This document shows positions 32,406 through 49,099 of a DNA stretch of 64,000 bases, piece after piece. A program made the translations under genes and the position numbers. Positions within the stretch are counted from its first letter, which is position 1. Every line of letters begins with the position of its first letter. The notes beneath the pieces were generated by a model. The model worked only from the letters and a program-made list of their open reading frames with translations, had not been told where the DNA came from and did no database searches. The stretch lies in contig LVLI01000084.1 in assembly GCA_001687465.1 (NCBI GenBank), positions 62,001 to 126,000 on the forward strand. Direction: 5' to 3'. Origin of the DNA: Halocafeteria seosinensis. Its lineage: Eukaryota.

Positions 32406-33487
32406 CTGGGAATCAGAGAAATGCAAACAGTGGGCGGTATGGTTGATGCTTGTACTGTACATCCCCATGCAATCATGCACAATTATGGAAATGTGTTGAA
32501 ACACCCAGCTTGCCCCCTACCAGCCCCTACCGAATGACTTGAACCAAGTGCCATGCAACCGGCTGTCAGGTCAGGCAGACGGATTCTTTGCGGACTCCGA
32601 TTTCGCTGTCGGCTCCGCGTCTTCGAGTTGATTCACACATATGACGCATCATGCGAAGCAGCAGAAAAACAGGATGCGATCTGCCAGGTACAACTCCGCG
32701 TAGAGTCAGCGTGAAGTGGGTACAGAGTGACTGGTCAGGGAGCAGGAAACAGAAGACACAAGGAAGCCGATGAAGGCCACCACCGGCCAGCTGGGAGCAT
32801 ACGACGCTACCTAGACTGAGGTAGGTGCGTTGCATCCCAGGGGAGGAGACGGCACCCAAAAGATTGAAGTGAGAAAGAAGTGCTTTGCTTGTAGTTCTGA
32901 GTCGTCAACCCCTCTTCCCGGGCCGGATTCCCCGTAACCGTCTTTTGTCTGGTTTTTTGCGGACCTCAAATTCGGTGTAACCGTGTAGCTCTCTCCTTTG
33001 GACGCTATGGTATGAGTACATGCTTTCTCCATCGTACATAGAACTGTCCACTCGTTAATAGGCCTTTTTCCGCTAACTTGAACCTCCAATGGCTCACATT
33101 CAACGTAAGTACCAACTGCTTCCGAGGAGCCACACTGCTTCACAGGAGGATTTATTCTGCAGGACTCCGCCTCTAGTCGTGAGGGGGATATACACGGGAT
33201 ACAATGTATATATCTCCATCCGCAGGTGGGAGCAAGAGCGCTTATGTAGGCTTATACGCGGAGATAAGGAACCGGCGGAGGCAGTGCAGCAGGGTCGCAC
33301 TCCAGCTCCCAATGCTCGTATGTCTGTTAGGATACTAAAGATAATGGCTTGTGGATTGTAAATTCGGAGCATCGGTCAGAGCGTCGCAAACAAGCGCATC
33401 CGTGTTTGGTCTGCATTTCGTTTGCTGTGAGTTTTTCTTAGTTGGCTTATATTGCTTCCTTGGTGCCCTGGTTGAAGGACAAGAAAA

Positions 33488-35490
33488 ATGGCAGGTCGTT
33501 CCCCTCAAGCTCACCCGAGGCGAACTTGGCCCTGGAAGACGATGTTTGTCGCACTCGTTGCTGTCTCTGCAAGCAGTTATAATATCCCCAAGGGACTCGT
33601 CTGGAATGTTCTTGTTCATTATGTCCCGAACCTGGCTGCTCTGTCTACCGTGGGACTTTTATCAACGGTAGGTAGTGGCGTCAGAACACCTGTTTTTCTT
33701 TTATCCGCTTCCCGCCTTTCACGGGGAATCGGAATATGCATAAGTGACTCATCGGTACTTTAAAGGAGTCAGTTGTGTGTCGCGTGTCGTGTTTATTGTC
33801 TGGGAGTGTCACATGTATACTCTTTCATGTCATGCAGCTTCATCCTGTAGCCCCTGTAGATTACCTCGCTGAGGAAACGGTGCCTAACTTCCTCAAGTCG
33901 GTTCAAGATAGGTACTTCGATCAATCCCCGCCAGATCCGCGAGTGGTTTACCCCAATACAGCACCAACGATCCTTAATGTACCGATATTAGAAAGGATAG
34001 AATTCTTCATATTTCGTTTCTGGAACTTCTTTGCTTTACAGTTCATCAATATGCCGTTCAATCTGTGGTATTCACAGCTGAACTACCAAACTACACCGGT
34101 GCGGGACGACGAACTGGCTACTCTATTCACGCATCACTGGCCGTCATTTTTCCTCCGGTCACTGAACTACACTTCTCCCACCGGAACAGCTGAAGGATTT
34201 CCCGAATTTGTAGAGGCTCTAGACATCTCCAGCAGGGGAGGAAGAATCTTCGAATGGTACTACGCTCAGTTCCCCGGGATGGCTACGTTCGAGTACACGC
34301 AAAATAGCGAAAATATGTTCTATGGGGCGGGCTCATTTATCATCCTACGCCGCCCAAAGGGAAGTCCAGAAGAGCTGGAACCATATGCTATTGAGCTCTT
34401 TGGTGAATGCATGAACTCTTCCAACAAGAACGACGGGAATCATCCGCGATTTCCCTCTATCATTACAAGACCTGGTGATCCTGCATGGGACGCCAGTAAG
34501 ACCTTCCTGATCCATGGTGCACAACACTACTATGTCCTGGCGGAGCACTCGATGTCCCATTTCCCCTTCGATATTATCAACGCCGCTACCAAAGATCGCC
34601 GACTGGTGCCCCTGTTTCACCCGATCCAAAGTCTGTTGCAGCCTCACTTCAGATTCACCTTATCACTCAACGACTTCGTCATGAACAGTTTTGCAACGAG
34701 CATCTTATTGAATGACCATCTAGTGCACTGCTTTGACGCAAGCGGACCAGCGATCTTCCAGCTAACTCAAGAGTATACTAAGGAATTTAGTTTCAGTAAC
34801 CACAAAGTGGAATACTTTCCACCCCGCAATCCGTCGAACATAACGATCTTCCTCTTGGAATACCGCCCAATCATCGGAAAGTTTGTTCGACGAGTAGTCG
34901 AGGAGCATCGGTCAACTGGAGAATTTCGCGATGTTTACATGCAAAAATGGGCCGATCACATTGCTGCGTATGTTCCTGGGTTCCCCAATGGAGAGCAGAT
35001 TCAGAATGAAGCAGTTATGATCGAAGCGCTCACTGAAATAATCTTTGATTTATCCGTACACCATAGTACACAGCATTGGAATTATCATACGTCGCTTGAG
35101 ATGAAGAAGAGACCATGGCGTATTCGTCATCGCCCGCCTCTTTCCAAAGAAGAGCACTGGGACTGGGATGAAGGCAGTCACACAAGCGGAGATATGTTCA
35201 CATACTCTCAGACTGAGATTATGTTCTTCTTTCCTGGTAAGTTTCATCCTTGTTTCTTTTTTGGACCGGTAATGCCACTGTTTAGCCGATATCTACTTTG
35301 TTCGTCGAACACAGGACCCTACAATAGTCTTAAAGAGACTAAGTATAGCTTCTCGCGTCCGAAAGTAAACGATTATGCCCGGGAATTCATCCAGGATTTG
35401 AAGGCGAAAGATAAGAAGCTTGAGAAGGAAGGAGATCCGGTGTATCAGCTAGTCCCCTTCGACAAGATGGGCCCCTCAATTGACTGCTGA
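33488..35490 (+). CDS. Divergent lipoxygenase-like protein, copy 1 (exons 33488-33667, 33838-35236, 35315-35490; 584 aa)
   Basis: LEPYAIEL, WDASK, EHSMSHF, INAATKDRRLVPLFHPIQSLLQPHFRFTLSLN, LTEIIFDLSVHHSTQHW, C-terminus GPSIDC*. These are the LOX catalytic-domain landmarks in the correct order. Confidence 0.8.
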
Positions 35491-36287
35491 AGAAGGCAGT
35501 GAACGGCTGATGGCATCTAGTGAATTGCATATTATGTATTCTGTATAGAAGTTGGAGGAACTTTAGTTGAGTCAAACGGCAAAGACCGATTCGTAGCCAA
35601 CCTGGACAGTGGCCAAACCGTCGGGGCTTTACTGTGCTGGATTCGAAATATGGATAAAGTAAGCTAACATGTATAAGGTAGCAAAGGTGGTCGGTCTTAC
35701 CACGGGTAGTTCGTTTGGCAGCGTAGAGGTCCCTCTTATAGCCTGGATAGATAACAGTTCCTTTGTTGCTCCAATCAAATGACCCAACACTCCAACTCCT
35801 CTCGTTTGAGAGTACGCTGTAGCGATTCTGAAGAACCTGGTGCATTGAGAAAATATGAGAGAACTAAAATCTTGTCTCCGCAGTCTTCTCAAGGACGTTA
35901 GTCAGCTGGATTCTTGGAGTCCCAAGAGTCAGCAGATGCTACTCGGGGGCACATTGTGCGTCTTGACCCGAGGCAACGCATGTGTATATGCCTTGCATAA
36001 CGGTAACGGGCAAATCACTTATCGCATCATCATGACGGGAGAATTCTTCTCCGCAGGCGGCCGTAAAGGATGGTGTTATTCGGGCTTTCGGTGTTGGATC
36101 GGAATCCATCCCCGCACCGCGGATCCAACGCCCAGTTCCCCGCCACAGAGGTGGGAAGTGTTCGACACTGGTTGAGTTGAGAGAAGGTTTGATGATGGGG
36201 CGCGGTACGAGGTAGCCTGCTTTGTATTTCTTTCGCAATTATCCTGGTTGTATTAGGTGAGCTTGAGTCCCCAAAACTCCGGAGGAA

Positions 36288-38189
36288 ATGCCTGCACAAG
36301 CCCAGCAGCCACCAGTGCCTTGGAGGACACTTATCGCAGTGCTTGTTGCTATGTCAGCTAGTAGCTACAACATACCCACCGATGTCGTCGTAGATACGTT
36401 CACGCACTATCTGCCCAACTTGGCGGCACTCTCCAGCGTCGGCGTCCTTACAACGGTAGGTTCTGAATTGGCGATCTTCTATCCTCCTCGCGGGCGCCCC
36501 GCGCCCGAGGGTCCCTACACGGATATCGTTCACAATGTACTCCTTCTTGCAGTTTCATCCAATTGCTCCGGTAGATTATGTCGCCAAACAAACGATACCA
36601 AACTTTTTGGAGACTGTGGAAGACAGATATTTCGACCATTCTCCTCCGGATCCGCGGGTCGTCTACCGTCATACTGTGCCAACCGTTCTCAACGTCCCGC
36701 TGCTCGAACGAATTGAGTTCTTTGTGCTCCGCTTCTGGAACTATTTTGCATTGCAGTTTCTCAACATGCCGTTCAATATGTGGTACTCGCGATTCAACCA
36801 TCGGACGACTCCTATAGAAGACGAAGAATTCAGTGCTTTATTTATGCACCATTGGCCATCGGCATTCCTTCAGACCTTGAACTACAGTTCACCACCTCAA
36901 ACAGCCGAAGGACTACCGGAATTCATCAAGGCGTTGCGTATCTCCGAACATGGAGGGGAAATCTTTGAATGGTACTACGTCCAATTTCCAGGAATGGCAA
37001 CCTGGGCATATACCAGGGAGCACAATAAGATGTTTTATGGTGCGGGCTCCTTCGTCATCTTCCGGCGTCCAAGAGGAAGTGCAGAAAATCTAGAACCGTA
37101 CGCCATTGAGTTGTTTGGTGAGTGTATGCGTGAATCATACAAAAATGATGGGAACCATCCCCGGTATCAGTCCATAATCGTCCGGCCAGGAGATCCTGCA
37201 TGGGATGCCAGCAAAACTTTTGTCATACATGGTGCCTCGCACTACTACGTGTTGGCTGAACATCCCATGGCTCATTTCCCTTTCGACGTTATTAACGGCG
37301 GAATAAAAGACCGACGCATAATGCCCGTTTTTCATCCTCTACGGCCGCTCCTGAAGCCGCATTTCAGATTCACTTTGACATTAAACGATTTCGTGATGAA
37401 CAGTTTCGCAACAAGTATAGCACTGAATGAGTACTTGGTGCACTGCTTTGATGCCAGCGGTCCGGAGAGCTTCCAACTCATTCAAGAGTATACGAAAAAG
37501 TATAACTTCTCCGAACACAGGATCCAGTATTTTCCTCCTCAGAATCCGTCGAATATGAGTGTATTCCTGTTAGAATACCGGTCTATCATTGAAAATTTTG
37601 TACGACGAGTTGTCGAGTATCATCGACCTACTGGTGAATTTCAGGATGCTTATGTTCAAGACTGGGCTGACCATGTCTCAAAGCACCTTCCGGGCTTTCC
37701 CAACGGGCGCGAAATCCTGGATGAAGAAGTGATGATTGACACTCTCACGGAGATCATATTTGACCTTTCCGTACATCACAGCACTCAGCATTGGAATTAT
37801 CACACTTCCTTGGAGATGAAGAAACGGCCTTGGCGTATTCGACACCGACCGCCACTGTCGAAAGACGACCCGTGGGACTGGAAAGCCGGTAGCCACACTC
37901 AAGAGGATGTGTTTACATACGCACAGACAGAAATCATGTTTTTCTTTCCGGGTAAGGACTTCAACTTAGTTCAGCTAGGCCATTTGTCTCAACCATACTT
38001 TTCCCGTACGCAGGTCCCTACACTATCCTCCAAGAGGTCGAGTATCAGTTCGATGACCCACAACTGCAAGCGATAGCCAAGGACTTCGCCCAGCAGCTGA
38101 AGGTGAAGGACAACCAGTTAAAGAAGACAAAGACACCTGTATATCAGCTAGCTCCTTTAGACAAACTTGGGCCATCCATCGACTATTGA
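36288..38189 (+). CDS. Divergent lipoxygenase-like protein, copy 2 (exons 36288-36455, 36553-37951, 38014-38189; 580 aa)
   Basis: EHPMAHF, HPLRPLLKPHFRFTLTLN, LTEIIFDLSVHHSTQHW, C-terminus GPSIDY*. Intron positions match copy 1. Confidence 0.8.
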
Positions 38190-40330
38190 CTCTTTCATTG
38201 GGGGAGGAAGTGTGCTCCCATACCGTATGGCTAGTTGGCATTGGTTTCGAGTGTAGAGCCTACCTCTCGACTCGAAGCTCTGGACTTTACAGAGCATAAT
38301 AGGAGAGATTCCACGCCTAAATAAATGCACACAAGTCTCCTTGGAGTTTGGTGATTTAATAACATGATAAGCTACTGTCTCCAGGGCGGGCCCGCAACTC
38401 GGCCCTGAGTCAACGTCGACATCCGAGGTTCACAAGTCTCTCTATTGCGTTGTCTATTATCTTCTCTCCAGCAGTAGCTCGTCATATCGGTAGTTTGGTA
38501 GATCCACTCCTTGGTTTACCAGAGGTTATGGAGGGAAAATTGGGCTGTGATATTAATTGAAGCACGCCTCTGCCAGGAACGCGCGGCCGTTTAGATCCCT
38601 CCGCGGAGTCGCATGCAGCATGATGCAGTGTAAGTTCCAAGAGGTCCTTTTTATATGCTACATTACACGCACATTTGCTAATCTATTGTACAGTGCTATA
38701 TTCATTATGTCTGTTCATTCTGGGAACTCCCTCCTCTTGTGCAGAAGAAGGAGTCTAGATATCCAGACAGAGCGGCCCATCCTGAACTTTTTTGACAGAG
38801 GCCCCGTAATAGGTGCAGCAAGGTTGTTGCACCGCTGGAGTAATTTGTTGGAATGGCGATAAGCTCCTGCACTTGGAGAAGTGGCGGTGCAAGTTCCTGA
38901 GCTCAGGAAATTGGAAGCGCTCGAGCTCGAGCTGAACTTCGAGGCTCGAAGATATAGGGGGAAAACAGGTGGATCAACGATATAAATGCGTCTAGTGCTG
39001 CTCGCAGGGACTATCCAGATAGAGATCTCAGTGTGAGGCGAAGGGTACATTCTATCGTAAGTCTCAACCAACTCCAACAACCGCGTTAGGAAATCTGGAC
39101 ACTTCGACCAGCTTATTGCTAAGCAGACAAACGTTCTGCTCCTGGAATCTGATCTGACTGTATGATCCTTCAACATTATCTAATCGGAGAAATGCAGTGT
39201 GTGGTTTAACTTCATCGACCGTGAAACTGTGTGTGGTTTCTCCAGGATTGACGGAATTGCCCTAACTCGGAGCATCAGACGCAGAAGATGGGTCAGCGCG
39301 AAACTCTTGCATAAATAGTGCCTAGATGATATGCTAATTACCAACAGGTCACTTGGAATAACAATATAGGAAATCGAAAACGATATGCCGAGGTTTGAAT
39401 ACTCAATTTATAACTCGATGGCAGCCATGCTGAAACTAGCATCTATGCCACTGCATACCTGCCGATCTGATCGAAGGAAAAAGCCCGGCTTTCATAAAGC
39501 AACCTAGCAAGGTTTGAGGAAGACGTCTCAGCTGAAACCGCAGAAGCTGCGGACATTCGCGGCCAAATCGATACGCGGATGTGTTTGCGGAGTTGAGGAA
39601 TTCCATGACCATGGAGGTTCAACTCTGTTACATGGACGGATGTAGCTTGCGCGCTATTCATCCCGACATTGTGGAGGAAGGAATGTACTTAAGCACGCGT
39701 ATTGCAGCGTGTGTCTCCAGGATGAAACCGTGAATGACGCAGACAGCGGTGAACGAGCAAGCGGCGAGGCTTCGAGCTGTAGTCTGGGCGCACACAAACA
39801 AATTCCATGGACCGAATGGAGGGCGGCTTGGCCAGTGACTCAGAATTCGTGGTTCAAATGTAGCTTTCCGCATTGTAACATGATACTATTTGGGTGTAAC
39901 TGTGTATAAGCTCCGAGTGTACAGGTTGAAGTTTTTCTCCGGAAGCTAACGGAAACTAGATGGAGTCTGTTCTGCTGCATTCTACGCTCCGGAACGCGCC
40001 ACAGGTACCATACGCGCTTTCTATGGCATATATAGAAGTATTCCCGAGAAGGGGAGCGCTTGTGCGTGCATAGGTTGTTCACGACAAAATACACCTGTTT
40101 TTTTTTATCCGGTGACCTGGAGACGCGGTCTGCTTTCCGCAGCCAGGGATCTTTTGGGATCCGCCGCTGAGTAGCTGTTGTATATTCCATAGTGTTGATC
40201 CACTGCGATACTGAGCTTCGTCCTTTTGCCGTCATTTCTCTGCCCGGTTCAGTCCACGTGCGTTTGTGTGGTAGAAAATCTCAGGATATCTTGTTCTCAC
40301 AACAGTCGCTCGCTCGCTCCAACAGAAAAA

Positions 40331-42252
40331 ATGAGGTGGAAGACACTGTTGGCCGTTCTGGTGGCGATTACTGCTAGCAGCTACAATATCCCCAAGGGGC
40401 TCGTTGTGGATATATTCACCTACTATGTCCCGAATTTCGCGGCGCTTTCAGGTGTGGGACTCTTGACGACGGTAAGTGGCACGCAAAAGGCCCCAGCCAA
40501 GCCAACTTGGGCCTGGGAAGAGGTTGAAGTGGATGTTGGATGTACGGCGGAGATAGTTGTGACTCATCGTAACCTAGTGAGCGTATTTGTGTATGTGTGT
40601 GCAGTTCCACCCCATTGCCCCGGTAGATTACGTTGTGGAGGAAACTTTGCCCAATTTTCTCAAGTCACTTCAAGATAGGTACTTCGATGGATCTCCGCCG
40701 GATCCTCGAATTATTTACCCAAACACAGTTCCTACGATTCTCAACGTGCCATATTTAGAGCGAATTGAGTTTTTCTTGTTCCGATTCTGGAATTACTTTG
40801 CGCTGGACTTCATCAATATGCCATTCAACTACTGGTACTCCCGGTACCGTTACAAGACAACCCCGATGCCGGATGAACAACTTGCAGCCTTGTTTTCGCA
40901 CCAATGGCCTTCGTCTTTTCTATTGACCCTCAACTACACATCTCCTGCTAAAACCGCGGAAGGTCTCCCAGAATTCATCAGGGCCCTGAAAATTCCAGAG
41001 CACGGTGGGGAAAAATACCATTGGTACTATGCACAGTTCCCCGGTATGGCCACGTTTGCCTACAACCAAGAGCATAACAAGATGTTCTACGGGGCCGGCT
41101 CCTTCATTGTCTTCCGTCGCTCGAAGGGCAGTGAAGAAGATCTAGAACCTTTTGCGATCGAGCTTTTTGGAGAATGCATGCGCAATTCTACAAAGAACGA
41201 TGGGAATCACCCGCAGTTTCAATCCATAATCGTTCGGCCTGGAGACCGTGCATGGGAAGCTAGCAAGACGTTTGTTATCCACGGTGCCCAACATTACTAT
41301 GTGCTGGCAGAACATCCCATGGCTCATTTTCCTTTTGATGTAATCAACGGAGCAACAAAGGATCGTCGGTTGGTTCCTCTCTTTCATCCGATTCAGTCGC
41401 TTCTCCAGCCTCACTACAGGTTCCATTTGACTTTGAATGATTTCGTGATGAACAGTTTCGCAACAAGCATCTTGCTTAACGATCATTTAGTCCATTGCTT
41501 CGATGCAAGTGGTCCTGAGATTCTGCAATTAGCACAGGAGTACACGATGAAGTTCAGTTTCACCGGCCACAAAGTGAAGTATTTCCCACCTGAAAAACCC
41601 TCTAACTTGAGTGTGTTCCTTCTGGAGTACCGTCCTATCGTTGAAAGGTTCGTGCGCAATGTGGTGGAATTCCACCGCCCTACCGGTGAGTTCCGCGACG
41701 GATATATGCGAAAATGGGCAGACCACATCTCCAGTCACATTCCGGGATTCCCCAACGGAGAGGAGATCATGGATGAGGAAGTGATGATTGATACACTTAC
41801 GGAGATCATCTTTGACCTGTCGATTCACCACAGTACGCAGCACTGGAACTACCATAGTGCGTTTGAGATGAACAAGCGGCCATGGCGTATGCGCCACCCA
41901 CCGCCAATGTCAAAGGACGATCCGTGGGACTGGGAGAAGGGTAGTCAAACTAGTGATGATATGAGCACATATGCTAAGACAGAGATTATGTTCTTCTATG
42001 CCGGTAAGTTGTACGGTCGTGGCCTGTTTTATTATCAAGTCGTGTTGACATTCAGACGTGCTTTGATGAACTGCAGGGCCGTACAACAGCGTAAAAGACA
42101 CTAAATACAGTTTTCAAGCACCAAAGTTAAAAGAATACGCGAAACAATTTACTGACGAATTAAAGCAGAAGGATGACCAACTGAGCAAGACCGGTGACCC
42201 TGTCTACCAGTTAGCGCCATTGGATAAGTTAGGACCATCAATTGATTACTAG
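40331..42252 (+). CDS. Divergent lipoxygenase-like protein, copy 3 (exons 40331-40471, 40605-42003, 42077-42252; 571 aa)
   Basis: MRWKTLLAVLVAITASS leader; EHPMAHF, HPIQSLLQPHYRFHLTLN, LTEIIFDLSIHHSTQHW, C-terminus GPSIDY*. Confidence 0.8.
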
Positions 42253-43867
42253 AGGTGCCTTCTACGTGTCAGCTGACACTGGCGGTGATAGTATGATAGC
42301 ATTTCTATGGTTTGATCTGCCGCCGTTCAGGTGTAAACCAACGTAGCTCAGGAGCTCCGCTCTCAGTCCTGGCCGTGTCATCGGGTTCGGCCCATTTTCT
42401 GCTCGAGGACCGTAGTTCTGGTTTACCATGTACAGAAAAGCTGTGCCAAAGAACTGGAATCTTGTTTGACCTAGAAGGCAATGGATTAATACACGTTTTG
42501 TACTCTTTAAAGGTTGCTCGGAATTCCCTTGTCTATTCTGTCTGCGGCGACAAAGATAAAATCCGTGTGTAACCAAACAGGGATCGTAAGACTTCAAAGC
42601 GCACCGGAAAGGTCCGCCCGTTTGCTGTTTGTTCCGAACTAGCTGCTTGTTTGTTTAGGAATGTGATCCAACAAAGGGACCGTACCAGTACCACCTTCCT
42701 TTGCATTCTTCCTGTGGTTAACCGTATATGCAGTAAACTCTTCAACCGAGAACCAACGGAAACATAACAAGATTTACCTACTATGCATCATACTGTTTCC
42801 GAACGAAGATATAGTAAAACCACGCTTCTGCACAGCCTTGTACTCACAGTCATCGTCATCTTCATGGTCACCTAATAATTCCACTTCTGCATACCCCATA
42901 AGAGACCCTCATTCGATAGAGTACCCGCACTATAGACATTGATATTATGTACGCACAGTCCATACATACATACGTTGTAACTTACGACTTGTAAGGTGGT
43001 GGCAGGCACCGTAGTGGCAGTGGCAGACTTTAACTCGTCTACCACCACCAAGCAAGCAATCATTCCGTCGACGTGGACGCCATGGACCATGGTTGAGCCC
43101 GCGTAGTCCTTCATCACGTACACGTACACACGGTTTGAAAGACAGATGTGGGGGAAACAAAAAAGAAAAATGAACCAAGCAAGGAAAGGGCCTGCTTCCT
43201 GGCATACTAGAGCAACCTTCGGCTTTCTTCCTGGGGACCTTCACATCACCTGTTTTGTTTGCTCGAAAACGAATGCACAAGCATAGTAGCTTGTTGTACA
43301 ACGGTAGACGGAGTGGAGTGGTTGGTTGAAACGACCCAATCCATACATGCATGCAAAACGTACGAGCATTGGCTGGCTAGACAAGTACAGTACAATACAG
43401 CCTGAGAAGTCCGTCTCCCACGAAAGAAAGGAGCTGAAAATATGCATTCAACTCGTTTGGATGCATTGTGCTTGTACTATACAGCACTCTATTCCGGATC
43501 TTAGAGTAGATTGGCTCTCCAAGCGATTGAGTGGTGCCGTCGTTGTTGGTGGCCAGCAATGGGTACGGTACATATATTACGTTACAGGAAGCGACTTCCT
43601 TGCCACCAGGTGGTGGGGTGAACAAGCGAAGATCGTCCCATCAAGGGTGTTTACATCGAACCATGAACGGACCAATTCATGCACTGGCTCGGTGATACAT
43701 GTATGTGTGACGGGAGGGGGAAGAACAGTTGGAAAGATACACCCGCGTTGCTCGGAAGTACACTTCCTATTGAGGCGAAAAATGAAAAGAACAAGAGACG
43801 TACAAAGAGAGAAGAATTTGATTGTCCTTGCAGGATGTGTGGATGCATATGAAAGAGTTCTGTGAAA

Positions 43868-45576: not shown

Positions 45577-48285
45577 TCAGCCTTTGACCGTGCGCATGGG
45601 TCTTTGAGCAGGCAGTACAATGACCTTGTCAGGCTGATTGTTTGGTTTACTCGCAACCGAAGCACTATTTGTTGCAGAAGCTGTCGGCATGGAACTTCGT
45701 GTTGGAGCCAAGCTCGACGATGACGTTCTTGTCATAGTCGGAGAACTAATGGTAGAAAATGAAGCCGAGGGGGTTGGTGTCAAAGTTGGCGTGGGGCTTG
45801 CCGTTCCAGTTGGAGTCCTTATTTGGCTGTGCGACGACGATGACGATGACGATGGGGTGACACTCGCAGATGGTGTAAAGCTGCTTGAAGGAGCCTCCGA
45901 GCTTGTCGTTGTCGATAATGGCGTCCACGTGGGTGTAGGAGCAGGGGATGACGGTGGCAATTGAAAGCGTAGAATCGGCAGCAGATTCTCTTCTTCATCG
46001 TCGTCACTTGATCCTCTATTTAAAGCCCATACGTCGTCCGACCACCCTCCCAGTTGATACAGTTGTCCCTGTATATCGCTTAAATCATCTGAATTGTCCG
46101 TTTCTGCAAGATTGTCGATAGTAGGAATGACTCCTACTATCGGCTCTCCATTTCCGTTGTATACCGAATATTTCACGTGGATTGTACCGCTTGCTTCGCT
46201 TAATATAGATCCCATAATCCCACCAGCATTCGTCCCAGTGACTGAACCTGATGCATATGTATTTGTGATGTAGACATCACCTGTCGCACCACCTGATTGC
46301 CCTCCTGTCTGGTATCCTGTAATACCTCCTGCTTGGGTGCCAATAATATCTCCTCGTGTATAACAATCTATGAGATGTGCTTCACCGCGTCTATCTGCTG
46401 TATCCCCTCCACTCATCCCTCCACTATAATCTGCAGATATTTGTCCCATATTATAACATTCCTTGATATAAACGAATCCATTGTTCCAACCAGCATTGCC
46501 ACCCACAATACCACCACTGTATGGACCACTAGGAATGATATCTCCTGTGGAATAGGAACGAGTTACATACACTTGACCATTCGTCTGACCAGCAGCATTT
46601 CCACAAATACCACCTGCATATTGTCCTTCAATATTCCCAGTGGAGTAACAACCCGTGATATTGACAATCCCATCATTGGATCCTACACTTTGTCCTGCAA
46701 TACCACCTGCACTATCCAGTATCCTCCCTGTCGAATACGAATTCGATATCTTGATTTGACCATGATCATAACCACTTTGCAAACCACATATACCACCACC
46801 TTGGCTACCAGCAATATCTCCTGATGAGCTACATGAATCTATGATAAAGAATTTCTGATGTGATTGGACAATAAATCCACCACCGGATGCAGTTTTCCCA
46901 TTCCTAACATCAAGATTCCGGATCAAGGGAGCTTCATCAAATGATACAACACTACCCAGTATAGTAAACAATCCTTCGAAATCTGTTATCCCGTTCAGAT
47001 CTATGAAGTCCCCATTTTGCCGACCACCATCAAATGTCTCATTCGCATCCAACGAGATGTAGTCTTGGTTCGTATAGCCATGATCATCACCCCAAGCCAA
47101 CACACTACAATTCATTTCAAACTGGTGTTGAGCCGCATTATAATGAAAGCAGGATTCGTCACCATTTAAAATCGCAGGTCGTAAATCTGTTGCTGATACT
47201 ACCTCGTTCAAAAGAATGCAACCGGAAAACAATGTCACCAACATTCCTGTCGTGAGTGACGAAATATTACCACTCCTATTTTGGAGTCTGTACGCCAGAG
47301 ACCCCTTTCCATGCGCTAGGAGTTTCATTCTCCTAGAAGGGGATAGCCACGTCAGTGTCTTGAATGGAAATTCATATCTCAAGGGAGAAGCCTTTTCCAA
47401 TGAGTTGCTGGGAGTTGCGGAAAATTCTTCATCCCCTGGAGTTGTAAACTTCCAACTCAATGCTTGCAAAACCAGGACTGATGCGATCAGCAGGCTGAAT
47501 AAAACAAGAAGTGATTTTTCCTTTGGGACAGTCAAGGCGTGGAATCTGAGGTGTGTCATGTAATCACAAAAGCGAAATATCTCTCGGACACTACGGAGTG
47601 GATTTATATCCCTCGCTACAGTGCTGGCAGTCGTTAGAGCAGCACCGTCTCGTCCACTCTTAACCAGCTTGTTCCACCAGTAAACATAGTTGGTCGTTGG
47701 CCAGTGAACTCTTGGACAAAAGTCATTTTTGACATCGAGATGTGCGTGCGTCTCAGACGTGAACAACCCATTGGAATGACCCATCAACTTCATGTCACTA
47801 GTACTCTCCCGCACCAAGTTAATCGCTGGAAGATTTTTCATTGCAGCTGGATCTTCGGGGAGAGTTATACTTAGACACTGCAACCTTCTTCCCGTATTTT
47901 CAAGTATGTAGTAGTCATAAGATAACATCTTGTGGACCCATCCTCCTCGTGACCACGCGCCAAACTGAACCGGCATCGGAAGACAAGAGACATGTTTGCT
48001 ACGAACCGAATAAGATGACGGCACGATGCGAGCAGAGGAGGCAAAGCGACGCAGCCTCTGACGAGATCCATACACCAGGAAAGTATCACACTGAGAAGAG
48101 AATCCTGGTACGCGATGCGCTACCGATACGCATGGCTCACTGGGTTTGGGACCGTCCGCTTGCTTTGGCTCCTTGTCGGATATCAAGAGAGGACGGACAG
48201 CAACGAAAGCAACCCCAACCCCAATCAACATCAGCGTCCATTGCAAGGTCAGCGAAGATGATATACGCTGTGTGGGTCGTTTCAT
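45577..48285 (-). CDS. GLUG-motif (beta-helical) surface or secreted protein with Ser/Thr/Pro mucin-like tail; core probably starts at ATG 47244, upstream 347 codons look like fused unrelated segments
   Basis: About seven repeats of the type (C/S)YSTGxI....AGGI(C/V/A)G, preceded by ETFDG..DLNGITDFEGLF..IRNLDV. Leader MLVTLFSGCILLNEVVSA. C-terminal PTPT/SSS tract. Confidence 0.75.
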   Translation of the reverse strand: MKRPTQRISSSLTLQWTLMLIGVGVAFVAVRPLLISDKEPKQADGPKPSEPCVSVAHRVPGFSSQCDTFLVYGSRQRLRRFASSARIVPSSYSVRSKHVSCLPMPVQFGAWSRGGWVHKMLSYDYYILENTGRRLQCLSITLPEDPAAMKNLPAINLVRESTSDMKLMGHSNGLFTSETHAHLDVKNDFCPRVHWPTTNYVYWWNKLVKSGRDGAALTTASTVARDINPLRSVREIFRFCDYMTHLRFHALTVPKEKSLLVLFSLLIASVLVLQALSWKFTTPGDEEFSATPSNSLEKASPLRYEFPFKTLTWLSPSRRMKLLAHGKGSLAYRLQNRSGNISSLTTGMLVTLFSGCILLNEVVSATDLRPAILNGDESCFHYNAAQHQFEMNCSVLAWGDDHGYTNQDYISLDANETFDGGRQNGDFIDLNGITDFEGLFTILGSVVSFDEAPLIRNLDVRNGKTASGGGFIVQSHQKFFIIDSCSSSGDIAGSQGGGICGLQSGYDHGQIKISNSYSTGRILDSAGGIAGQSVGSNDGIVNITGCYSTGNIEGQYAGGICGNAAGQTNGQVYVTRSYSTGDIIPSGPYSGGIVGGNAGWNNGFVYIKECYNMGQISADYSGGMSGGDTADRRGEAHLIDCYTRGDIIGTQAGGITGYQTGGQSGGATGDVYITNTYASGSVTGTNAGGIMGSILSEASGTIHVKYSVYNGNGEPIVGVIPTIDNLAETDNSDDLSDIQGQLYQLGGWSDDVWALNRGSSDDDEEENLLPILRFQLPPSSPAPTPTWTPLSTTTSSEAPSSSFTPSASVTPSSSSSSSHSQIRTPTGTASPTPTLTPTPSASFSTISSPTMTRTSSSSLAPTRSSMPTASATNSASVASKPNNQPDKVIVLPAQRPMRTVKG

Positions 48286-49099
48286 GGTTACAGTATTAGC
48301 CTGAGAAACAGGCGATGAATCACGCGCTACTATTTCTTGCCCTTGTTCTTTCTAGTAGTAGAGTCGTAGCTGTCCGACACCTTGGTATGGCTTCGGGAGA
48401 AAACCTCAGTTTAATTAACGAGCACCTGCTCCGGTCTCTGGTTTGTTCGTCAATACTGTACTCTATACAACTTCTGTATACAATGCAGGAAGCGCCGTGG
48501 AGCGCACACGAGCGCGGCGGGTCACCGCCGGTGACTCACCGGGAGCCCGACCTGTTCAGCAGAGTAGAAGATTTCCCCGACTGCGTTTTCTTAAGCCTTT
48601 GCTGCCAAAAAAAAGCCAGTTGTGTGCAGAGGTTGGTGGTAAAAGCACTACGCTTGAGGGTCTTCTCTCAAAGGTTGGAGGTAGACTTTTACGCACACTG
48701 GAATGATGAACTTGTACATCCGCCATCTTGAGGGCGGCAGTTTGGAATCCTTGGATTCTCGATGAAGAATTGAACAAGGTCTTGAGGCCCATATTCGTAA
48801 CCCATTCAAGGTTATGGATACATTACTGTGTGTTCGTGGTTGCTGTTGTAAAGCAGTACCTGCCAAACTCATACGGGATAATAATTTAAGACGACTACGG
48901 TAGATGCAGGCAAAGCACTTGACACACCACAGACTGTTGACAATTAAGGCACTGCCTCCGCTTCTAATAACTCAAATAACCAAACTATAGATACGTAGGG
49001 CTAGCATTCCAGGAGAGTCGCGGCCGGCAACCAGCAGCAGCGTCTGCGAGAGCTGAATCGTAACGTCTCGCTGCGGAATTCCTTCCCAGCCGTTCCTAG

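What the first reader, a model, noticed from the sequence alone, without database searches (positions are those of the whole stretch)
33488..42252. Tandem trio of lipoxygenase-like genes with a non-canonical metal centre (candidate new LOX class / oxylipin system)
Seen: three intact paralogues with identical exon 2 (1399 nt) and exon 3 (176 nt) lengths and the full order of LOX landmarks. In all three, the first two ligand histidines are spaced H-x3-H (EHSMSH at 34543-34560; EHPMAH in copies 2 and 3). The third-ligand motif is HHSTQHW, with His where most LOX have Asn (HAAVNF). Known: Fe-LOX use H-x4-H on a pi-helix (HWLNTH), fungal manganese LOX use H-x3-H (HVLFH), and His at the Asn site occurs in mammalian ALOX15. 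Inference: a 4-His plus C-terminal-carboxylate site with Mn-LOX spacing, in a non-fungal flagellate, suggests a distinct LOX lineage with possibly different metal or chemistry. It has been amplified in an accessory island and may serve oxylipin signalling, defence or prey-lipid processing.
Basis: partly seen in the sequence, partly recalled or inferred. Interest (0 to 1): 0.88.

Follow-up and report, generated by a model that had tools for sequence, protein, structure and literature searches.

The report
Overlooked lipoxygenase family with remodelled site
Three neighbouring, spliced protist genes encode lipoxygenase-fold proteins of a large, mostly bacterial and apparently undescribed family whose predicted metal site differs from ordinary lipoxygenases, and which likely oxidise polyunsaturated fatty acids using iron or possibly manganese.

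Summary
There are three intact, spliced paralogues (584, 580, 571 aa; 69-72% identical; purifying selection) with a lipoxygenase catalytic-domain fold (Z 29.4, rmsd 3.1-3.4 A over about 460 residues against 12-LOX), H-x3-H spacing and His at the Asn site.

They are not peculiar to this protist. They belong to a monophyletic family (229 clusters at 50% identity; 52 of 201 genomes in one predatory-bacteria class; also an amoeba, a malawimonad and a blastoclad fungus). It has H-x3-H in 191 of 191 sequences against H-x4-H in 32 of 32 canonical bacterial LOX, an HxxDH motif, Val at the Coffa site, no second-sphere Gln pair, and a Tyr/Phe terminus instead of Ile. It is not a fungal Mn-LOX relative (11% identity). 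Pfam often misses it.

In bacteria, 25 of 40 loci lie beside signalling genes (STAND kinase/cyclase, histidine kinase); the scan noted LOX-STAND coupling before on other DNA. The 'accessory island' is unsupported: the duplications are old.

Best reading: a likely secreted fatty-acid dioxygenase making oxylipins (0.6); metal unresolved (Fe about 55%, Mn about 40%). New variant of a known kind.

The parts
33488..35490 (+). Gene 1, 584 aa; exons 33488-33667, 33838-35236, 35315-35490; ends in SIDC
   Evidence: (P0001)
36288..38189 (+). Gene 2, 580 aa; exons 36288-36455, 36553-37951, 38014-38189; ends in SIDY
   Evidence: (P0003)
40331..42252 (+). Gene 3, 571 aa; exons 40331-40471, 40605-42003, 42077-42252; ends in SIDY
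   Evidence: (P0002)
33488..33667 (+). Exon 1 of gene 1: hydrophobic N-terminal segment, predicted signal peptide or anchor (likewise 36288-36455 and 40331-40471)
   Evidence: 11-residue hydropathy maximum 2.27-2.57 in the three proteins; 0 of 39 bacterial loci reach 2.0; no signal-peptide predictor was run
34543..34560 (+). EHSMSH: His297 and His301, predicted first two metal ligands, H-x3-H
37258..37275 (+). EHPMAH: the same ligand pair in gene 2
41310..41327 (+). EHPMAH: the same ligand pair in gene 3
34678..34680 (+). Val341 at the Coffa (Ala/Gly) position by sequence alignment (also 37393-37395 and 41445-41447)
35062..35076 (+). HSTQH: His469 (third ligand) and His473 (Asn position of most LOX); also 37777-37791 and 41829-41843
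35476..35487 (+). C-terminal SIDC; the last residue aligns with the metal-binding C-terminus of 12-LOX (model 584 to chain 663)

Best explanation
The three genes are old, spliced tandem paralogues encoding lipoxygenase-fold proteins of a distinct, mostly bacterial family, which likely bind one iron (or manganese) ion and likely add oxygen to polyunsaturated fatty acids, probably outside the cytosol. Shown: gene structure, splicing, family membership and conserved residues. Predicted: the LOX catalytic-domain fold without a PLAT domain. Inferred: His297, His301, His469 and the C-terminal carboxylate hold the metal, His473 is the fifth protein ligand, and a metal-hydroxide abstracts the bis-allylic hydrogen before O2 is added to give a hydroperoxide. 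A one-residue deletion would replace the pi-helical bulge of Fe-LOX by a regular helix, as recalled for fungal Mn-LOX but arising independently. Metal split within this reading: Fe about 55%, Mn about 40%. Inferred role: oxylipin production; in the protist likely on prey or membrane lipids in the secretory or feeding-vacuole route, in bacteria likely coupled to the neighbouring signalling proteins.
For: Fold: Foldseek E 3e-15; VIA-align Z 29.4, rmsd 3.1-3.4 A, 457-461 residues aligned, model 88-584 onto 12-LOX 133-663; two AF2 models pLDDT 76 and 77.5, pTM 0.79. Ligands in 196 family sequences: H297 191/191, H301 192/192, H469 188/189, H473 187/188. The W-x-x-x-K, P-H-F-R and acidic H+4 landmarks are in register with solved LOX. 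Three His plus His/Asn/Ser plus the terminal carboxylate is the common LOX set (PMC13059375, passages); His as sixth ligand occurs in active human 15-LOX-1 (PMC7436259, passages). Purifying selection: pN 0.16-0.17 against pS 0.85-0.89. In Bacteroidota loci L001, L007, L008 and L079 the gene is divergent from a CspLOX1-like LOX (PF00305 for L001 and L079; L008 against 5ek8 E 4e-89; L007 by similarity) and directly upstream of a kinase-STAND-GAF-cyclase gene.
Against: No member was found to have been assayed. The Coffa position is Val in 54 of 55 family members against Ala/Gly in 28 of 32 canonical LOX; the two second-sphere Gln/Glu positions are replaced; the terminus is Tyr/Phe. Sequence-only mapping of pocket residues is unreliable across bacterial LOX clusters (PMC13319228, section 5). 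A LOX fold with ligands does not guarantee activity: class II fungal LOX have only nominal activity (PMC12383934, passages). PF00305 scores sit at the cut-off (21.7-26 bits against 23.6). The arched-helix region 331-390 is poorly modelled (pLDDT 56-64 over 331-390). Secretion rests on hydropathy only.
Confidence: 0.6

Rival explanations
1. The family works mainly as a hydroperoxide isomerase, like eLOX3: the reduced metal would turn fatty-acid hydroperoxides made elsewhere into epoxy alcohols or ketones.
For: Near-invariant Val at the Coffa position (180 of 194). A Gly-to-Ala change there raises isomerase activity in Mn-LOX, and eLOX3 lacks an oxygen channel (PMC13319228, section 7). A canonical LOX lies divergently next to the gene in four Bacteroidota loci.
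Against: Among the nearest neighbours scanned for the 40 loci, a canonical LOX was found for only three (L001, L007, L008). The window has no other LOX copy; the rest of the genome is not held. The Coffa mapping is by sequence only.
Confidence: 0.2
2. The fold has been repurposed: another lipid substrate, or in bacteria a metal, O2 or lipid-peroxide sensing input for the adjacent STAND, histidine-kinase or ECF proteins.
For: 25 of 40 bacterial loci have a signalling gene as nearest neighbour or one gene further. In 5 of 5 chosen genomes the best-scoring AAA_16 gene is the one next to the LOX-like gene. The second sphere and arched helix are remodelled. Many hosts are not known PUFA makers (recalled).
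Against: The whole catalytic scaffold and all ligands are kept; a signalling neighbour is what an oxylipin-making enzyme would also have; the protist copies have no such neighbour in the window; no fusion to a sensor was found (weak evidence).
Confidence: 0.15
3. The genes are a recent lateral acquisition from prey bacteria, amplified in an accessory island of this protist.
For: The family is much more often seen in bacteria; identity to bacterial members (about 27-31%) is not far below that to other eukaryotes (about 27-36%); the stretch downstream (42.3-50.5 kb) has few long ORFs.
Against: All named eukaryotic members in the tree (this organism, Stenamoeba, Paraphysoderma, Gefionella) fall in one 20-tip clade with no named bacterial locus (local support 0.86; inner 7-tip clade 0.94 and SH-aLRT 95.5). 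Synonymous saturation, two shared introns and GC3 0.51-0.56 against 0.40-0.51 for nine other ORFs argue for long residence. Donor and direction were not tested.
Confidence: 0.1
4. The proteins are degenerate, inactive LOX relics.
For: Loss of several canonical LOX residues.
Against: The same substitutions are fixed across about 190 sequences from many phyla; all three copies are intact, spliced and under purifying selection.
Confidence: 0.03

Closest known systems
Mammalian 12/15-lipoxygenases (porcine leukocyte 12-LOX 3rde, rabbit 15-LOX 1lox/2p0m, human ALOX12 8ghb)
   Same: Best sequence and structure matches (E 3.5e-6 single sequence, 2.5e-15 profile; Z 28.6-29.4). His at the fourth-ligand position in the ALOX15 type (QHSSNH in 3rde, QHSSIH in 1lox). 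C-terminus in the same place.
   Different: Only 17-19% identity; H-x3-H instead of H-x4-H; no PLAT domain; Tyr/Phe/Cys terminus; Val at the Coffa site; hydrophobic N-terminal segment.
Fungal manganese lipoxygenases (Magnaporthe 5fno, Gaeumannomyces 5fx8)
   Same: Same fold (Z 26.6-26.9, rmsd 3.1 A), no beta-barrel, H-x3-H spacing (the Mn-LOX spacing is recalled, not checked here), probably secreted.
   Different: 11% identity; not listed in sequence searches at E<=10 or E<=1; His rather than Asn as fourth ligand (PMC8659247); Tyr/Phe rather than Val terminus (PMC13059375).
Bacterial Fe-LOX without PLAT domain (Cyanothece CspLOX2 5med and CspLOX1 5ek8, Pseudomonas 5ir4, Enhygromyxa 8x8f, Myxococcus MF-LOX1)
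   Same: Compact catalytic domain only; bacterial spread; Z 24.9-28.2.
   Different: CspLOX2 ligands are His257, His262, His449, Asn453, Ile569 (PMC5437038); 32 of 32 canonical bacterial LOX sampled are H-x4-H and form the other side of a 98.8-supported split.
Epidermal lipoxygenase-3 (eLOX3, hydroperoxide isomerase)
   Same: A precedent for a LOX fold that works as an isomerase when O2 access is limited (PMC13319228).
   Different: No specific sequence relation was tested; the analogy rests on the Val at the Coffa position.

Membership tests
Lipoxygenase superfamily (PF00305) | Match to PF00305 above the curated cut-off (23.6 bits) | tested here: inconclusive
   Exon-2 products score 25.4, 21.7 and 26.0 bits; 21 of 44 family members match at E<=0.01
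Lipoxygenase superfamily (PF00305) | LOX catalytic-domain fold | tested here: met
   Z 29.4, rmsd 3.1-3.4 A, 457-461 aligned on a predicted model
Lipoxygenase superfamily (PF00305) | Three fixed His plus His/Asn/Ser at homologous positions | tested here: met
Lipoxygenase superfamily (PF00305) | Chain terminus placed as carboxylate ligand | tested here: met
   Model residue 584 aligns with chain residue 663; conserved S-I-Q/D-Y/F end
Lipoxygenase superfamily (PF00305) | Ligands converge on one metal in three dimensions | tested here: inconclusive
   Coordinates not available; both His pairs are i,i+4 in modelled helices
Lipoxygenase superfamily (PF00305) | Dioxygenation of a 1,4-pentadiene fatty acid; bound Fe or Mn | not testable with these tools
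   needs purified protein
Canonical iron lipoxygenases | H-x4-H spacing of the first two ligands | tested here: not met
   H-x3-H in 191 of 191 family sequences with both His; H-x4-H in 32 of 32 canonical controls
Canonical iron lipoxygenases | C-terminal Ile (rarely Val) | tested here: not met
   Cys, Tyr, Tyr here; Tyr or Phe in 169 of 181 family sequences at the last column
Canonical iron lipoxygenases | Ala/Gly at the Coffa site and second-sphere Gln/Glu pair | tested here: not met
   Val 54 of 55 against Ala/Gly 28 of 32; H-4 is Glu/Gln in 26 of 32 controls but V/T/L/N/I in the family; the Asn+3 Gln (22 of 32) is Tyr/Phe in 43 of 55; sequence alignment only
Fungal manganese lipoxygenases | H-x3-H spacing | tested here: met
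   the reference spacing is recalled (structure papers not held)
Fungal manganese lipoxygenases | Asn fourth ligand and C-terminal Val | tested here: not met
   His473 and Cys/Tyr against PMC8659247 and PMC13059375 passages
Fungal manganese lipoxygenases | Descent within the fungal Mn-LOX clade | tested here: inconclusive
   11% identity and lower Z than animal Fe-LOX; no Mn-LOX sequence was available for the tree
Fungal manganese lipoxygenases | Catalytic manganese, suprafacial chemistry, bis-allylic product | not testable with these tools
   needs ICP-MS, EPR and product analysis

The most novel reading that the evidence does not exclude
The family is a second, independently evolved manganese lipoxygenase lineage and the first in bacteria and protists: a regular helix, a fourth His and a conserved neighbouring Asp would tune the site for Mn, and in bacteria the enzyme would feed oxylipins to a co-encoded STAND kinase/cyclase or histidine kinase.
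Probability: 0.25. Interest if true: 0.88.

Novelty: new variant of a known kind. Interest (0 to 1): 0.64.

Why it matters
What makes a lipoxygenase use Fe or Mn is unresolved; metal-swapped enzymes are inactive although the ligands are the same (PMC13059375). A second lineage with H-x3-H spacing, unrelated to the fungal enzymes and present in cultured bacteria (Shewanella waksmanii, Flammeovirga, Algoriphagus aquatilis, Halobacteriovorax, Plesiocystis pacifica), makes the role of that spacing directly testable with one metal analysis. The family also raises the count of LOX-bearing bacteria: a PF00305 genome scan found the known member in only 1 of 5 genomes, below cut-off, while a family profile finds it in 52 of 201 genomes of one class. 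Its tie to signalling genes points to bacterial oxylipin sensing, and a changed pocket may give new products for biocatalysis.

Tried and rejected
(1) MF-LOX1 as an iron-binding H-x3-H precedent: PMC6612559 prints 'His376 + His372' and found Fe, not Mn (passages). A myxobacterial homologue (L047) with the same 318 residues from the Gly359 equivalent to the end and Phe at 424 has His at 367 and 372 and Glu at 376 (positions 549/553 are off by one). The printed number is therefore probably a transposition; I dropped the precedent. MF-LOX1 itself was not fetched. (2) A LOX-sensor fusion: the 861-aa frame in L078 is a shadow of a histidine kinase gene in another frame; the search for longer homologues found none, which is weak evidence. 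(3) Viral origin of the unnamed sister sequences: three scans of viral contigs found no relative; two metagenome scans found none, so their hosts stay unknown. (4) Further copies or remnants in the window: none. (5) NCBIfam: no match for 44 members. (6) Expression level: no RNA holder is listed by record; only contigs were laid, so genes cannot be ranked. (7) Support values printed were shifted by re-rooting; corrected. (8) Earlier findings by sequence: none. (9) Literature: ten searches listed no paper describing this family. The library lacks most subscription papers, among them the 2022 review that sorts bacterial LOX into nine clusters, which may include it. (10) The wide fold search was not run. 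No complex prediction was run.
Full report
OBSERVATION. Splicing at GT..AG sites gives proteins of 584, 580 and 571 aa with no internal stop, exon 2 of 1399 nt and exon 3 of 176 nt in each, and 69-72% pairwise identity. They match three EukProt transcript proteins, P0001, P0003 and P0002. Contigs of three runs from one study join across the introns; a fourth run has no joints; in X3 the first intron of gene 1 is not joined. Nonsynonymous differences are 0.16-0.17 per site and synonymous ones 0.85-0.89, so the duplications are old and the proteins constrained. No fourth copy lies in the window. No whole genome is held.

FOLD AND SITE. PF00305 matches at the cut-off. A 44-sequence family profile returns 53 PDB sequences at E<=1, 52 of them lipoxygenases, best E 2.5e-15. 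An AlphaFold2 model (pLDDT 76, pTM 0.79; repeat 77.5) matches LOX catalytic domains: Z 29.4, rmsd 3.1-3.4 A, 457-461 residues, with model residue 584 on the C-terminus of 12-LOX. Residues 1-82 are low confidence and no PLAT domain is present. The ESM Atlas gives three clusters at 0.96-0.97, with PF00305 on 42-58% of members and mostly bacterial. His297 sits 20 residues after the conserved Trp, as the first ligand does in canonical LOX, and His301 follows after three residues instead of four. His469 and His473 align with the His and the Asn/His of the second cluster. I could not measure distances in the model.

THE FAMILY. A full HMMER search with exon 2 of gene 1 finds 229 clusters (50% identity) at E<=0.001, 140 at 1e-10; 150 were listed. 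A scan of GTDB genomes gave 156 pattern matches, 41 relatives and 40 loci, from Bdellovibrionota, Bacteroidota, Myxococcota, Gammaproteobacteria, Sphingomonadales and others; its patterns fixed the second His but not the first. I aligned 203 sequences and dropped seven near-duplicates; some P and L entries are still the same protein. In the remaining 196: H-x3-H in 191 of 191 with both His (five fragments lack the region), H469 188/189, H473 187/188, Asp before H473 164/188 (Gln in the window proteins), Val341 180/194, Asp512 183/185, Tyr or Phe last in 169/181. As control I took 32 canonical LOX frames from 31 of the 35 loci found with PF00305 (left out L043, a family member, and L046, L069, L071, which failed a length or motif filter). 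All 32 are H-x4-H; 27 have Asn at the His473 column, 28 Ala/Gly at the Val341 column, 22 Gln three residues after the Asn, and 20 end in Ile. In a tree of 55 family and 32 control sequences (411 columns) the split between them has SH-aLRT 98.8. The family profile hits 52 of 201 genomes in the class of Halobacteriovorax and 2 of 401 in the class of Algoriphagus (each sample includes its centre genome). PF00305 found the known member in 1 of 5 genomes, under cut-off. Some members carry automatic names such as 'lipoxygenase', so the fold assignment is not new; the family as a unit appears to be.

EUKARYOTIC MEMBERS. The nearest relatives include Stenamoeba (P0017), Paraphysoderma (P0018, with further paralogues P0023, P0052, P0072, P0172), Gefionella (P0150) and unnamed environmental sequences. 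In a 171-tip tree all named eukaryotic members present fall in one 20-tip clade without a named bacterial locus (support 0.86); most other tips of that clade are of unknown host. This fits an old eukaryotic branch or transfer among eukaryotes; donor and direction were not tested. The three window proteins, Stenamoeba and Gefionella have a hydrophobic N-terminal segment (2.27-3.17), which none of 39 bacterial proteins has, while two full-length Paraphysoderma proteins lack it. The window segment is encoded by exon 1, so entry into the secretory route is likely but not shown. Three N-glycosylation sequons per protein are about what chance gives. GC3 is 0.51-0.56 against 0.40-0.51 for nine other ORFs, and the only long repeats in the window are the paralogues. 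Neighbours are a cation-efflux, an RCC1 and an MFS gene on the left and Rad4/XPC and a JmjC-like gene on the right, with a stretch poor in long ORFs at 42.3-50.5 kb. An accessory island is neither shown nor testable.

BACTERIAL CONTEXT. Of the 40 loci, 13 have a STAND (AAA_16) gene as direct neighbour (L001, 004, 006, 007, 008, 010, 013, 027, 031, 032, 036, 037, 038), two have it one gene beyond an ECF sigma factor (L011, 022), six a histidine kinase, one a receiver, one a SpoIIE phosphatase and two an FHA protein: 25 of 40. The other 15 have metal transporters, hydrolases, oxidoreductases, unknowns or no flank. These loci are related, so the independent events are fewer: STAND genes occur beside two separate subclades. 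In five genomes chosen for having the pair, the top AAA_16 hit of the genome (E<=1e-19, next best 1e-12 or weaker) is that neighbour. In the Halobacteriovorax class, a full-length homologue of one kinase recurs within the fetched stretch in five new loci (L078, 087, 088, 092, 093) and one repeat (L081) of 19 fetched. In four Bacteroidota loci a canonical CspLOX1-like gene is divergent from the family gene. An earlier AI note (e1-3830587) reports LOX beside STAND genes on other DNA; I had seen the association before reading it, and it is a lead, not support.

MECHANISM. Most likely the proteins act as lipoxygenases: a metal(III)-hydroxide held by three His, the terminal carboxylate and His473 abstracts the bis-allylic hydrogen and O2 is added (established LOX chemistry, PMC13319228 section 5; its application here is inferred). 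On the metal: the canonical Fe-LOX examined are H-x4-H, fungal Mn-LOX are recalled as H-x3-H, and their coordination geometry is reported to differ (PMC5437038). A stronger His donor and a conserved acid beside it could lower the potential as Mn needs (inference). Against Mn: no kinship with fungal Mn-LOX, best matches to Fe enzymes, and Fe as the default. I put Fe at about 55% and Mn at about 40%. The one apparent Fe precedent for H-x3-H, MF-LOX1, is probably a numbering slip. The Val at the Coffa position keeps a hydroperoxide-isomerase role open.

LITERATURE SEEN. Passages: PMC13235166, PMC6612559, PMC13059375, PMC3669278, PMC12383934, PMC8659247, PMC5437038, PMC7436259. PMC13319228: abstract, sections 3, 7, first part of 5, and passages. 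No supplements were opened; those of PMC13319228 and PMC5437038 may hold alignments that bear on ligand spacing. Not held: the two Mn-LOX structure papers. Not seen: the 2013 and 2022 surveys of bacterial LOX. Ten searches listed no paper on this family (terms combined lipoxygenase with a recalled candidate host name, bacterial host genera, protist groups, manganese, ligand and cluster words). Residue names Coffa site, second-sphere Gln pair and pi-helix are partly recalled.

VERDICT. New variant of a known kind; interest 0.64.

Noticed in passing
window 38400-40114 (+), intron 38630-38744: A spliced transcript of about 1.5 kb between genes 2 and 3 in runs X2-X4, with no ATG-started ORF above 44 aa on the + strand; possibly a non-coding RNA.
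   Followed up: partly
window 33105-33162 (+) and 33668-33837: An extra GT..AG intron upstream of gene 1 (run X2), probably in its 5' UTR; intron 1 of gene 1 is retained in the X3 contig.
   Followed up: partly
window 42250-43400 (-): A spliced minus-strand transcript (joints at 42541/42605 and 42710/42781) converging on gene 3; no clear protein found.
   Followed up: partly
window 45577-48351 (-): 924-aa frame with glycine-rich repeats and a Ser/Thr/Pro-rich tail, no Pfam match at E<=0.1; looks like a surface or secreted repeat protein.
   Followed up: no
window 37539: T/G difference in contigs of X1 and X2, silent in gene 2 codon 385.
   Followed up: yes
L001:3132-12132, L007, L008, L079: Three-gene Bacteroidota module: CspLOX1-like LOX, divergent family LOX, and a 1700-aa kinase-STAND-GAF-cyclase a few bases downstream.
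   Followed up: partly
L004, L011, L022, L027, L037, L038: Proteobacterial module of family LOX with a STAND-TPR protein (kinase-fused in L004, L027, L037, L038) and, in five loci, an ECF sigma factor.
   Followed up: partly
L021:7087-8412 and homologues in L014, L020, L023, L024, L078, L087, L088, L092, L093: A conserved 440-aa histidine kinase with an unannotated N-terminal 200 residues recurs near the family gene in predatory bacteria; a candidate oxylipin sensor.
   Followed up: partly
L012, L019, L040: In Flammeovirga the family gene sits inside a heavy-metal efflux cluster, between a CusB-like gene and a P-type ATPase.
   Followed up: no
PMC6612559, section 2.1: 'His376 + His372' for MF-LOX1 is probably His367 + His372.
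   Followed up: partly
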